This document shows positions 51,187-52,662 of a stretch of 64,000 nucleotides of DNA, one piece after another. Origin of the DNA: Escherichia coli (lineage in GTDB: Bacteria > Pseudomonadota > Gammaproteobacteria > Enterobacterales > Enterobacteriaceae); assembly GCF_009931435.1 (NCBI RefSeq), contig NZ_CP043414.1; one strand, given 5' to 3'. The translations under genes were made by a program, and so were the position numbers. Below the pieces are notes generated by a model. It worked only from the letters and a program-made list of their open reading frames with translations. It did no database searches and was not told the origin of the DNA. How positions within the stretch are numbered: position 1 is the first letter of the stretch; each line of letters begins with the position of its first letter.

Positions 51187-51371
51187 GCTGACCTCATTTC
51201 CCCTTAACGCCGGGGTAGCGGAACAAAAACCTGCTGCATAGTTATTAAAGTTGTACCCTGCCGTCATGTTCTTACGCCTCGGGCTGGCTACTTAACCCCT
51301 GACCACTGCCTGGTAACTCGAAGTATTGCCCTGCATTCTGTGGAGCGGGGTGAGTTGGTATGAAAAGAAGG

Positions 51372-51408
51372 ATACCCATAGGTATTTAAAAAGTAAATAC
51401 CCATGGGT
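51372..51408. promoter_or_regulatory. two palindromic operator candidates (ATACC-N4-GGTAT type) in the promoter region of the ydfA-dicB operon
   Basis: ATACCCATAGGTAT at 51372-51385 and ATACCCATGGGT at 51397-51408. The same GGTAT half-site recurs in the 51872-51971 intergenic region. Confidence 0.4.
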
Positions 51409-51451
51409 GACTTTTTGCAGTGTCTTAACTGGTGACTAGTTGTTTGGTGAG

Positions 51452-51871
51452 CTATGATGCGTTTTGTGCTTTCTTTTTACGGATTTCTTCGTAGATCATA
51501 TTGTAATACTGTTTTTTCTCTTCAAGAGTTTTTAATAAGTTATCCGCTTCACTTTCTGGCAGTTCGTCTAAGAGATCTAAAAAAATACGTTGTCGTGGCG
51601 TTAGAACCCTTGTTTCATAACTGGAGGCTGTGTTCGTTGATGATGAAACGATACCATCCATCCATCCCCGGGGTAACCCAAAGGACTCTTCGATAATCTC
51701 CACCATATCATCAGCGATCCGTTTTTTTCCCTTTTTCCCCTCTGGGTACAACATTCTTGATACATAAGAAGGCTCGCGCCCGATCTTTCTGGCCACGTTA
51801 ACCGCTTTACCATCGCATTTCTCATCACGAATTTTGATGAGTTGCTGTCGTCTAAATTCATATTTGTCCAT
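51452..51871 (-). CDS. prophage repressor, RacR-like helix-turn-helix protein (functional analogue of DicA/CI)
   Basis: 139 aa with a helix-turn-helix (GKAVNVARKIGREPSYVSRML). It is divergent from a YdaS/YdaT-like pair, the arrangement known from Rac (racR, ydaS, ydaT). Confidence 0.55.
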   Translation of the reverse strand: MDKYEFRRQQLIKIRDEKCDGKAVNVARKIGREPSYVSRMLYPEGKKGKKRIADDMVEIIEESFGLPRGWMDGIVSSSTNTASSYETRVLTPRQRIFLDLLDELPESEADNLLKTLEEKKQYYNMIYEEIRKKKAQNAS

Positions 51872-51909
51872 AGGTAAATAATAGATGCGATTACTGCAAG
51901 GTAAACAAC

Positions 51910-51945
51910 CTGTGGGTATTGACTTTTGTTTACCTGTAGGTATTC
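51910..51945. promoter_or_regulatory. divergent promoter/operator region with direct repeats CCTGTgGGTATT / CCTGTaGGTATT
   Basis: Two 12-bp direct repeats 24 bp apart, embedded in the inverted pair GTAAACAA / TTGTTTAC. They share the GGTAT half-site with the 51372-51408 palindromes. Confidence 0.4.
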
Positions 51946-51971
51946 TTTGCTGTGTTTACTAAGGAGTAGCT

Positions 51972-52253
51972 ATGGAAGAATTAAGAATATTTCTCAATTC
52001 TCTTTCGTCAGATGAACAGCGTATGTTTGCATGCGAGTGTGGTACCAGCATCGGTTATCTAAGAAAGGCATTGAGTAAAGGTCAAGTGTTAGGGGCATCG
52101 TTATGTGTCCTTATTGAGCGAGCCAGTAATGGTGAAGTTACACGTCAGCAACTAAGGCCTTTTGATTGGATGAATATTTGGCCCGAGCTGGAAGATACCA
52201 AAACGTTAACACAACCACTTTCTAGGAGCTTGATTCATGAAAATCAAGCATGA
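51972..52253 (+). CDS. YdaS-like Cro/antitoxin-type helix-turn-helix protein
   Basis: 93 aa. C-terminal ERASNGEVTRQQLRPFDW resembles Rac YdaS (...ERATRGEVLCEELRPDIDW, from memory). Confidence 0.55.
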   Translation: MEELRIFLNSLSSDEQRMFACECGTSIGYLRKALSKGQVLGASLCVLIERASNGEVTRQQLRPFDWMNIWPELEDTKTLTQPLSRSLIHENQA

Positions 52254-52662
52254 ACACATCCGCATGGCGATGAATGCCTGGGCGCATCCGGACGGTGAAA
52301 AAGTTCCGGCAGCTGAAATAACCAGGGCTTATTTTGAACTGGGTATGACGTTCCCAGAACTGCATGACGACAGCCATCCGGAAGCCCTGGCTCGCAATAC
52401 CCAGAAAATTTTCCGCTGGGTAGAGAAAGACACCCCTGATGCAGTTGAAAAAATTCAGGCGTTGTTACCAGCGATCGAAAAGGCAATGCCACCTTTGCTG
52501 GTGGCCAGAATGCGCAGCCACAGTTCAGCTTATTTTCGGGAGCTGGTGGAGACGCGGGAGCGACTGGTGAGAGACGCTGATGATTTTGTCGCAGTGGCAA
52601 TCGCCGGTTTCAATCAGATGAACCGTGGTGGCCCGGCAGGAAATGCTGTGGCAGTGCATTGA
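52237..52662 (+). CDS. YdaT-like protein (CII-position / toxic-when-overexpressed family)
   Basis: 141 aa starting MKIKHEHI..., the same N-terminus as Rac YdaT (from memory). Overlaps the preceding gene. Confidence 0.6.
   Translation: MKIKHEHIRMAMNAWAHPDGEKVPAAEITRAYFELGMTFPELHDDSHPEALARNTQKIFRWVEKDTPDAVEKIQALLPAIEKAMPPLLVARMRSHSSAYFRELVETRERLVRDADDFVAVAIAGFNQMNRGGPAGNAVAVH

What the first reader, a model, noticed from the sequence alone, without database searches (positions are those of the whole stretch)
51268..52662. Immunity region is RacR/YdaS/YdaT-like rather than DicA/DicC, yet controls the dicB-DicF operon; shared GGTAT operator half-sites in two locations
The gene at the dicA position (51452-51871) is unrelated to DicA as I recall it. 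It is divergent from a YdaS-like (Cro/antitoxin-like) gene and a YdaT-like gene (MKIKHEHI...), which is the Rac arrangement. In Rac, the repressor is essential because it silences the toxic ydaS-ydaT pair.

Palindromes ATACCCATAGGTAT and ATACCCATGGGT lie downstream of the repressor gene, in the likely promoter of ydfA-ydfB-ydfC-DicF-dicB. Direct repeats CCTGT(g/a)GGTATT lie in the divergent intergenic region. This suggests one repressor co-controls both the YdaS/T side and the division-inhibitor operon. It is a mosaic Rac/Qin hybrid regulatory region.
Basis: partly seen in the sequence, partly recalled or inferred. Interest (0 to 1): 0.55.

Follow-up and report, generated by a model that had tools for sequence, protein, structure and literature searches.

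The report
Ordinary lambdoid prophage immunity switch, new allele
This is the on/off switch of a Qin-type prophage of E. coli: a standard phage repressor/Cro/CII arrangement with a so-far unstudied repressor version that very probably silences the cell-division inhibitors dicB and DicF, as DicA does in E. coli K-12.

Summary
The motif is a 12-bp palindrome, TACC-N4-GGTA, present five times: OL1 and OL2 downstream of the repressor gene, and OR1, OR2 and a missed OR3 in the divergent region.

The repressor shows no similarity to RacR. It is a chimera.
- Residues 1-78 are a helix-turn-helix domain 65-80% identical to the DNA-binding domain of S24-peptidase CI repressors, for example phage mEp043 cI.
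- Residues ~86-136 are the DicA-type C-terminal helical tail.

The "YdaS-like" gene is 73% identical to mEp043 Cro. The "YdaT-like" gene is 97% identical to PDB 3C4R and about 84% to CP-933P YdaT. That protein's footprinted site, TTGATT-N6-AATCAA, occurs once, perfectly, over the ydaT start codon.

The cro-ydaT layout is not Rac-specific. Undegraded DicA/DicC prophages have it, and K-12 ydfX is a YdaT remnant.

One repressor acting at both OL and OR is the canonical lambdoid design, already shown for DicA. The same operators, in the same geometry, recur in eight loci from six genera that share the N-domain.

The block sits in 820 of 5426 complete E. coli genomes. It is a new allele of a known kind, of modest interest.

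The parts
51369..51397 (-). PL-type promoter of the ydfA-ydfB-ydfC-DicF-dicB-ydfD-exo operon: -35 TTTACT (51397-51392), 17-nt spacer, -10 TATCCT (51374-51369); predicted start near 51362
   Evidence: Read from the sequence. It matches 8 of 12 consensus positions, just under the scan threshold. The same geometry (-35 abutting OL2, -10 starting inside OL1) is seen in eight related loci, including PL of phage mEp043 upstream of N. It is paralogous to the PR unit. Homology to phage Tritos and to Rac resumes at 51355-51362, right at the predicted start.
51373..51384 (.). OL1 operator, TACCCATAGGTA (perfect palindrome; the 14-bp form ATACCCATAGGTAT spans 51372-51385)
   Evidence: conserved position in related loci
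51398..51409 (.). OL2 operator, TACCCATGGGTG (1 mismatch), centre 25 bp from OL1
51452..51871 (-). Repressor gene, 139 aa. Residues 1-~78 (51638-51871) form an mEp043-CI-type HTH DNA-binding domain. Residues 76-87 are a disordered linker. Residues ~88-139 (51455-51610) form the DicA-type helical tail. There is no S24 peptidase domain.
51878..51905 (-). PRM-type promoter of the repressor gene: -35 TTTACC (51905-51900), 16-nt spacer, -10 TATTAT (51883-51878). The ATG at 51871 lies 7 nt after the -10, so the mRNA is predicted to be leaderless.
   Evidence: A -10 at the same distance from the ATG is conserved in the related loci aligned. A leaderless repressor mRNA is documented for lambda cI and CP-933P paaR2 (PMC8630535).
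51892..51903 (.). OR3 operator, TACTGCAAGGTA (1 mismatch). It overlaps the PRM -35 and spacer, and its centre is 15 bp from OR2.
51907..51918 (.). OR2 operator, AACCTGTGGGTA (1 mismatch). It abuts the PR -35 on one side and lies 2 bp from the PRM -35 on the other.
51931..51942 (.). OR1 operator, TACCTGTAGGTA (perfect). It overlaps the PR spacer and -10, and its centre is 24 bp from OR2.
51919..51946 (+). PR-type promoter of cro-ydaT: -35 TTGACT, 16-nt spacer, -10 TATTCT
It is 73% identical to mEp043 Cro and carries a ~17-20-aa C-terminal extension that overlaps ydaT.
52230..52247 (.). YdaT box (OM-type), TTGATTCATGAAAATCAA. It is the only match in the window and overlaps the ydaT ATG.
   Evidence: 0.02 expected. 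The site was defined by DNase I footprinting for CP-933P YdaT (PMC9986795).
52237..52662 (+). ydaT gene, 141 aa, the functional equivalent of lambda CII
   Evidence: Pfam PF06254; PHROG 163 'CII-like activator'; 97% identical to PDB 3C4R and about 84% to 8BT1; 98% identical to the phage Tritos gene
49896..51267 (-). Controlled leftward operon (start): ydfA (51031-51267 long form, or 51031-51186), ydfB, ydfC (50653-50871), DicF (50259-50310), dicB (49896-50084)
   Evidence: 96% identical to K-12 Qin from 48849 to 51224

Best explanation
The region 51355-52662 is the immunity region of a Qin-type lambdoid prophage. It has the canonical lambda layout: PL/OL, repressor, PRM/OR/PR, cro, then a CII-equivalent.

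How it most likely works:
- The 139-aa repressor binds as an oligomer to five TACC-N4-GGTA palindromes.
- At OL1 and OL2 it occludes the PL-type promoter. This silences ydfABC-DicF-dicB-ydfD-exo...xis-int.
- At OR1 and OR2 it occludes PR, which silences cro-ydaT-replication. From OR2 it is placed to stimulate its own leaderless transcript from PRM.
- OR3 overlaps the PRM -35 and would give autorepression, or be the preferred Cro site.
- Cro is expected to use the same operators.
- YdaT binds the TTGATT-N6-AATCAA box at the cro/ydaT junction. By analogy with CP-933P it turns on a PRE-like leftward promoter to establish repressor synthesis.

The repressor has a DicA-type helical tail instead of an S24 autoprotease domain. 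It should therefore not be cleaved in the SOS response. Relief of repression is expected through an antirepressor or through repressor instability, as for DicA with Rem, the Gifsy repressors and SPC32H Rep.

What is shown here: gene identities, domain homologies, motif enrichment, conserved operator-promoter geometry and the mosaic boundaries. What is inferred: binding, repression, activation, leaderless initiation and the induction route.
For: Motif enrichment: 5 TACC-N4-GGTA sites (at most 1 mismatch) fall within 570 bp. There are 19 in the other 63 kb.

Comparative footprint. Eight loci from Escherichia phage mEp043, Salmonella, Pantoea, Klebsiella, Yersinia and Serratia encode a repressor with this N-domain. 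All carry the motif in the repressor-cro intergenic region (three sites, spaced 25 and 15 bp) and as a pair 25 bp apart at the first leftward promoter. This holds whatever the C-terminal domain (S24 or tail) and whatever genes follow. The motif is absent from the immunity regions of K-12 Qin, Rac and phage Tritos, which have other DNA-binding domains.

Cro co-varies with the cassette, at 61-73% identity.

The predicted PR and PRM hexamers interlock with the operators as they do in lambda.

The AF2 model (pLDDT 85) shows an HTH domain, a disordered linker and a helical hairpin. The best PDB match is the antirepressor-controlled Rep of phage SPC32H, and the other matches are Cro/CI-type HTH proteins.

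YdaT is about 84% identical to the footprinted CP-933P protein, and its exact site is present once, at the homologous position (PMC9986795).

Phage Tritos has the same backbone with another immunity cassette upstream of the same DicF-dicB operon.

DicA is known to repress dicBp and dicCp through operators at both promoters (PMC10448788).
Against: There is no experimental binding or expression data for this allele. The PL hexamers are weak (TTTACT/TATCCT, 8 of 12) and fell below the scan threshold. OR2, OR3 and OL2 each carry one mismatch to the palindrome. No antirepressor gene or LexA box was found in the part of the prophage inside the window, so the induction route is open. Some database alleles are frameshifted (P0015), so the repressor may be dispensable in some strains, or those sequences may carry errors.
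Confidence: 0.85

Rival explanations
1. This is a Rac/Qin hybrid in which a RacR-like repressor is essential because it silences a toxic ydaS-ydaT pair, and which has additionally captured control of dicB-DicF.
For: The gene order (repressor, then divergent HTH gene, then ydaT) is the same as in Rac. YdaT is 33% identical to Rac YdaT over its full length. The 165-bp PL leader (51199-51362) is 85% identical to the DNA downstream of racR. Rac YdaT overproduction is reported to be lethal, and racR cannot be deleted unless ydaST is also deleted (PMC11879457).
Against: There is no sequence similarity to RacR. The repressor tail is DicA-type. Cro is 73% identical to mEp043 Cro and matches Rac YdaS over only 28 aa. 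YdaT is far closer to the CP-933P type (about 84%), for which no toxicity and no toxin-antitoxin behaviour were found (PMC8630535). The same gene order occurs with DicA/DicC. OL/OR co-control is ancestral to lambdoid phages, not a capture.
Confidence: 0.08
2. The switch is a decayed relic. The repressor no longer functions, the repeats are fossils, and the dicBF operon is kept silent by other means such as H-NS or Rho termination.
For: Qin in K-12 is cryptic. Frameshifted repressor alleles exist in some assemblies (P0012-P0018). Additional layers of control of dicBF are reported (PMC10448788).
Against: The intact block is present at 95-99.9% identity in 820 of 5426 complete genomes. All three ORFs are intact here. 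The operators keep their consensus and spacing. Tritos, annotated as a phage genome, carries the same backbone.
Confidence: 0.05
3. The inverted repeat downstream of the repressor gene (51374-51408) acts mainly as the intrinsic terminator of the repressor transcript rather than as operators of a promoter.
For: On the minus-strand RNA it folds into a 15-bp hairpin (about -21 kcal/mol, z = -4.1) followed by AUCCUUCUUUUCAU. The terminator scan flagged it.
Against: Any two copies of a palindromic operator form such a hairpin. In related loci the same pair lies up to 4 kb from the repressor gene, directly at the first leftward promoter, and without a U-tract. The two roles are not mutually exclusive.
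Confidence: 0.1

Closest known systems
DicA/DicC immunity region of cryptic prophage Qin (E. coli K-12)
   Same: It occupies the same chromosomal prophage type and the same downstream operon: 96% DNA identity from 38 bp upstream of the K-12 ydfA start codon through ydfE. The repressor is likewise short and lacks an S24 domain, and its C-terminal tail is homologous. It is divergent from a cro-type gene followed by a YdaT-family gene (ydfX is the remnant in K-12). Operators lie at both the PL-type (dicBp) and PR-type (dicCp) promoters (PMC10448788).
   Different: [quoted passage not shown] The operators (TACC-N4-GGTA) are absent from K-12 Qin. Cro is not DicC. No rem homologue occupies the K-12 position. 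The whole protein scores 23.9 bits against the NCBIfam DicA cut-off of 101.
cI/Cro immunity cassette of lambdoid phage mEp043 and S24-type CI repressors of enterobacterial prophages
   Same: The DNA-binding domain is 65-80% identical and Cro is 61-73% identical. The operator consensus, the number and spacing of sites at OR and OL, and the leaderless PRM layout are the same.
   Different: Those repressors are 221-242 aa with a Peptidase_S24 autocleavage domain. They are followed by a lambda-type CII (PF05269), and mEp043 has N and kil on the left. Here the tail is DicA-type, the CII equivalent is YdaT, and the left operon is dicBF.
PaaR2/YdaS/YdaT immunity region of CP-933P (E. coli O157:H7)
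   Same: YdaT is about 84% identical, and its footprinted TTGATT-N6-AATCAA site lies at the cro/ydaT junction (PMC9986795). The repressor mRNA is leaderless, the logic is CI/Cro/CII-like, and the repressor is not cleavable (PMC8630535).
   Different: No paaA2-parE2 toxin-antitoxin pair follows the repressor.
RacR/YdaS/YdaT of cryptic prophage Rac
   Same: The gene order is the same and YdaT belongs to the same family (33% identity). The PL leader and the ydfA/ydaF genes are homologous (85-87% DNA identity).
   Different: There is no similarity between the repressors, RacR lacks the DicA-type tail, and the operators differ.
Short, antirepressor-controlled lambdoid repressors (Gifsy GfoR/GtgR; SPC32H Rep)
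   Same: The size is about 136-140 aa and the cleavage motif is absent. The best structural match of the model is SPC32H Rep in its complex with Ant. DicA and RacR were placed in this group by Lemire et al. (PMC3121763).
   Different: No cognate antirepressor or LexA-controlled module was found in the window. The structural match is weak (TM 0.44-0.48, E 1e-3).

Membership tests
DicA (NCBIfam NF007257, transcriptional repressor DicA) | Whole-protein score above the curated cut-off (101 bits) | tested here: not met
   23.9 bits; only residues 86-136 match model positions 81-131
DicA-type C-terminal tail (about 50-aa helical hairpin at the extreme C-terminus of short phage repressors) | Homology of the C-terminal ~50 residues to DicA and its relatives | tested here: met
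   blastp 33% over 46 aa, E 1e-7. A profile built without DicA scores K-12 DicA at 44.3 bits and Tritos CI at 71.9 bits. It finds 245 cluster representatives, and among the 150 listed the tail is C-terminal in nearly all. AF2 predicts helices 92-103 and 106-138.
DicA | [quoted passage not shown] | tested here: not met
   No Pfam hit. There is no N-terminal alignment to DicA. TACC-N4-GGTA is absent from the K-12 dicA-dicC and dicBp regions.
RacR | Sequence similarity to K-12 RacR | tested here: not met
   Best blastp E 2.3 over 7 aa
Lambdoid CI repressor of the S24 (LexA-like) type | C-terminal Peptidase_S24 autocleavage domain | tested here: not met
   The protein is 139 aa with no PF00717 hit. 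Homologues of the N-domain that are 221-242 aa do carry PF00717.
mEp043-type CI DNA-binding domain | N-terminal domain homology together with cognate TACC-N4-GGTA operators at OR and OL | tested here: met
   65% identity over 86 aa to mEp043 cI and 70-80% to S24-type homologues. The operators are shared.
YdaS (Pfam PF15943) | Score above the gathering threshold (30 bits) | tested here: not met
   25.8 bits. Similarity to K-12 YdaS covers only 28 aa. The protein matches PHROG 35 and mEp043 Cro. It is best described as a Cro of the same broad HTH superfamily.
YdaT (Pfam PF06254; CII functional equivalent) | Family score above threshold and close homology to the structurally characterised members | tested here: met
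   39.6 bits against 21; 3C4R E 1e-90 and 8BT1 E 5e-80
YdaT (CP-933P type) | TTGATT-N6-AATCAA operator at the cro/ydaT junction | tested here: met
   A single perfect match at 52230-52247, with 0.02 expected
Lambdoid immunity region | Divergent repressor and cro genes with multiple operators overlapping PR and PRM, and a second operator set at PL | tested here: met
   Met at the sequence level. Protein binding was not tested.
Lambdoid immunity region | The repressor actually binds the operators and represses PL and PR | not testable with these tools
   Requires EMSA, footprinting or reporter assays
dicBF operon | DicF sRNA and DicB downstream of ydfABC | tested here: met
   Rfam DicF 76.7 bits against 48; Pfam DicB 125.6 bits

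The most novel reading that the evidence does not exclude
The DicA-type ~50-residue tail is a portable module that recombines at the linker with many different DNA-binding domains. Here it has replaced the S24 autoprotease of an mEp043-type CI. One immunity specificity (domain, operators, Cro) therefore exists in both an SOS-cleavable and a non-cleavable form across Enterobacterales. A resident Qin-type prophage with the tail form would give SOS-proof immunity against infecting phages of the S24 form. It would also place dicB and DicF under a different induction signal.
Probability: 0.35. Interest if true: 0.45.

Novelty: new member of a known kind. Interest (0 to 1): 0.27.

Why it matters
About 15% of complete E. 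coli genomes carry this allele, roughly as many as carry the K-12 dicA allele. RefSeq nevertheless names its repressor a 'hypothetical protein', and Pfam has no model for it. Work on DicB and DicF (division block, phage resistance, metabolism) is done on the K-12 DicA/Rem circuit. In these strains the same effectors sit behind a different repressor and different operators, with no rem homologue at the K-12 position. The operator consensus and promoter map given here make reporter and heteroimmunity experiments straightforward. The domain-swap pattern is a clean example of lambdoid modular evolution inside a single gene. It does not change how these switches are understood.

Tried and rejected
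- Pfam and a PDB sequence search on the repressor gave nothing usable.
- A word-indexed homologue search with the 56-aa tail alone returned only fragments. The exhaustive profile search was needed instead.
- A Rem-type antirepressor at the K-12 position (hokD-ydfU) was looked for. The ORF there (56724-57002) bears no visible resemblance to K-12 Rem (sequences; not aligned formally) and matches only PHROGs of unknown function.
- A LexA-box search (CTGT-N8-ACAG) gave one chance-level hit at 40559, outside the early region studied.
- A candidate extra site over the repressor ATG (TTGTCCATAGGTAA, 51864-51877, repeat D4) was dropped. It has three mismatches and no counterpart in related loci, whereas OR3 at 51892-51903 does.
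- The idea that the whole three-gene block came from Rac was rejected on the pairwise comparisons and the DNA mosaic map.
- No paper on the mEp043 operators or on protein WP_000362155 was found.
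Full report
**What is there.** The stretch 49.6-54.3 kb is the early region of a lambdoid prophage.
- On the minus strand lie an ExoVIII-type exonuclease gene, ydfD (DUF1482), dicB (Pfam 125.6 bits), DicF (Rfam 76.7 bits, 50259-50310), ydfC, ydfB and ydfA (DUF1391), then a 139-aa ORF at 51452-51871.
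- On the plus strand lie a 93-aa ORF (51972-52253), a 141-aa ORF (52237-52662), a replication-initiator gene and a DUF977 gene.
- An identical module in E. coli APEC O78 sits next to rspB at the Qin attachment site, followed by hokD, ydfU, the Q-type antiterminator and cspF/cspB. This is a Qin-type prophage.
- The 1395-bp finding is present at 80% coverage or more in 813 of 5426 complete E. coli genomes. The block ydfA + promoter + repressor + divergent region is present in 820. That is about as many as carry the K-12 dicC-dicA-ydfA block (848).

**The repeats are real and are one motif.** ATACCNANNGGT gives 7 matches in 64 kb against 0.32 expected, and five of them lie here. Read on both strands, the sites are a 12-bp palindrome, TACC-N4-GGTA. 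With at most one mismatch there are five sites within 570 bp:

| Site | Coordinates |
|---|---|
| OL1 | 51373-51384 |
| OL2 | 51398-51409 |
| OR2 | 51907-51918 |
| OR1 | 51931-51942 |

Centre-to-centre spacings are 25 bp (OL1-OL2), 15 bp (OR3-OR2) and 24 bp (OR2-OR1).

**How the sites sit on the promoters.**
- PR is TTGACT-16-TATTCT (51919-51946, plus strand). OR2 abuts its -35 and OR1 overlaps its -10.
- PRM is TTTACC-16-TATTAT (51905-51878, minus strand). OR3 lies over its -35, and OR2 is 2 bp upstream of it.
- The repressor ATG lies 7 nt after the PRM -10, so the mRNA is predicted to be leaderless.
- Downstream of the repressor gene, read on the minus strand, OL2 is followed directly by TTTACT. 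After a 17-nt spacer that contains OL1 comes TATCCT.
- This unit aligns with the PR unit over about 45 bp. It is the PL-type promoter of the ydfA-dicB operon.

**What the repressor is.** It has no Pfam hit and no PDB sequence relative. It has no similarity to RacR.
- Its last ~50 residues match the DicA model (NCBIfam positions 81-131, E 2.8e-5; 33% identity to K-12 DicA over 46 aa).
- Its first ~78 residues are 65-80% identical to the N-terminal domain of 221-242-aa Peptidase_S24 CI repressors. These come from Salmonella, Edwardsiella, Yersinia, Klebsiella and Pantoea, and include cI of the lambdoid phage mEp043.
- The AlphaFold model (pLDDT 85) shows a helix-turn-helix domain (helices 3-18, 23-30, 34-40, 54-63), a disordered linker (76-87) and a helical hairpin (92-103, 106-138).
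- Its best PDB match is Rep of Salmonella phage SPC32H, a repressor that an antirepressor disassembles. Cro/CI-type HTH proteins follow.
- A profile of the tail alone, built without DicA, finds 245 cluster representatives. Among the 150 listed, the tail lies at the extreme C-terminus in nearly all, and most are 110-180 aa.
- Of 125 of these scanned, 81 carry HTH_3, 13 Phage_CI_repr, 11 a YdaS-type HTH and 5 P22_Cro.
- The same profile scores K-12 DicA at 44 bits and RacR at -0.3 bits.

The protein is therefore a DicA-class short repressor whose DNA-binding domain is of the mEp043-CI type.

**The operators go with the N-domain.** Eight loci encode this N-domain: phage mEp043, two Salmonella loci, and loci from Pantoea, Klebsiella, Yersinia (two) and Serratia.
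- In all of them TACC-N4-GGTA sites occupy the repressor-cro intergenic region in the same three-site pattern. A -10 hexamer and the ATG follow at leaderless distance.
- A pair 25 bp apart sits at the first leftward promoter. The -35 abuts the distal site and the -10 starts inside the proximal one.
- This holds whether the C-terminus is S24 or the tail, and whether the leftward genes are N/kil, toxin-antitoxin genes or others.
- K-12 Qin, Rac and phage Tritos have other DNA-binding domains and lack the motif at these positions.
- The cro genes co-vary with the cassette. The window protein is 73% identical to mEp043 Cro and 61-73% to the others. It resembles Rac YdaS over only 28 residues, and its Pfam YdaS score is below threshold.

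**The third gene.** The YdaT-family assignment is correct (Pfam 39.6 bits against 21).
- The protein is 33% identical to Rac YdaT, 97% to PDB 3C4R and about 84% to CP-933P YdaT (8BT1).
- CP-933P YdaT is a tetrameric functional equivalent of lambda CII. It protects a TTGATT-N6-AATCAA inverted repeat at the end of ydaS, next to a YdaT-activated PRE-type promoter (PMC9986795, PMC8630535).
- That exact sequence occurs once in the window, at 52230-52247 over the ydaT start codon, with 0.02 expected.
- For the CP-933P pair, the authors found no toxin-antitoxin behaviour and no YdaT toxicity (PMC8630535). Rac YdaT overproduction is reported as lethal (PMC11879457).

**The mosaic map.**
- Against phage Tritos: 47487-51355 is 93% identical, 51453-51568 (tail codons) is 76%, and 52225-54371 is 96%. 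There is nothing over OL/PL or over the N-domain, OR and cro.
- Tritos has the same gene order and the same DicF-dicB operon. Its CI has an XRE-type N-domain, nearly the same tail and different operators.
- Against K-12 Qin: homology (96%) ends at 51224, 38 bp upstream of the K-12 ydfA start.
- Against Rac: only the PL leader (51199-51362, 85%), ydfA/ydaF, a leader segment upstream of dicB and the first 30 bp of ydaT match.
- The specificity elements are thus two short segments, OL/PL and N-domain-OR-cro. They are set into a conserved backbone that includes the repressor tail.
- The cro-ydaT layout is not Rac-specific. Strain 88_1577 has dicA/dicC followed by a full-length YdaT-family gene and replication genes. 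K-12 ydfX is a truncated YdaT homologue.

**Mechanism and comparison.** The best reading is the canonical lambdoid switch described under Best explanation.
- It corresponds to what is documented for DicA. DicA represses dicBp (a PL analogue) and dicCp (a PR analogue) through operators at both promoters and lacks the RecA cleavage site. It is relieved by the antirepressor Rem, by heat and by urea, and with DicC it forms a bistable switch (PMC10448788, PMC3441716).
- Short repressors of this class, including DicA and RacR, were grouped with the antirepressor-controlled Gifsy repressors by Lemire et al. (PMC3121763).
- In the part of the prophage inside the window I found no rem homologue and no LexA box within the early region studied. 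The inducing signal remains open.

**Verdict.** The 'RacR-like, unrelated to DicA, Rac/Qin hybrid' description is wrong in its specifics. The allele itself is uncharacterised: RefSeq calls it a hypothetical protein and no paper was found. It is a new member of a known kind, of modest interest.

Noticed in passing
window 51374-51408 (minus strand): OL1 and OL2 with their flanks form a 15-bp hairpin in the repressor's 3' transcript (about -21 kcal/mol, z = -4.1), followed by AUCCUUCUUUUCAU. It could double as the terminator of the PRM transcript. In related loci the operator pair lacks the U-tract.
   Followed up: partly
window 51722-51728 (T7 on the plus strand, A7 in repressor codons ~47-50, KKGKK): There is a homopolymer run inside the repressor gene. 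Several database proteins (P0012-P0018, e.g. P0015) are frameshift versions that join the alternative-frame ORF 51601-51861 to the normal C-terminal two thirds. These could be real inactivated alleles or homopolymer sequencing errors.
   Followed up: no
window 51031-51267 (minus strand): The ydfA ORF is 78 aa here, starting at the ATG at 51267, against 51 aa in K-12. PHROG 751 covers residues 10-77 and phage Tritos annotates the long form. K-12 homology begins only at 51224, so K-12 YdfA may be an N-terminally truncated version.
   Followed up: partly
window 51199-51362: The ~165-nt leader between PL and ydfA is conserved with phage Tritos (93%) and with the DNA downstream of racR in Rac (85%). 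It is absent from K-12 Qin. A conserved leader such as a nut-like site or a Rho-loading site is possible but was not examined.
   Followed up: no
window 52190-52253: Cro carries a ~17-20-aa C-terminal extension relative to mEp043-type Cro proteins, and it overlaps ydaT by 17 nt. Homology to the Tritos backbone resumes at 52225, so the extension looks like a by-product of the recombination joint.
   Followed up: partly
window 52858-52903 and 53128-53173; 53170-53200: Two clusters of GTCACG-containing repeats (ATGTCACG, GTCACGAC) lie about 270 bp apart inside the replication-initiator gene. An adjacent tandem CAGATAAAGATA repeat is also present. These are probably origin iterons inside the O-like gene, as in lambda.
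   Followed up: no
window 55941-56115 and 56053-56265: [quoted passage not shown] A DUF5677 gene (54486-55523) and an ORF of unknown function (56724-57002, PHROG 1212) take their place.
   Followed up: partly
protein P0180: A 146-aa protein 47% identical to K-12 RacR over residues 1-118 carries the DicA-type tail at its C-terminus, although K-12 RacR itself does not score with the tail profile. This is another example of the tail being swapped between DNA-binding domains.
   Followed up: no
window 50100-50264: The segment between DicF and dicB is 80% identical to the segment between kilS and kilR in Rac (L003 2250-2416). The leaders of the two division-inhibitor genes are therefore related.
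   Followed up: no
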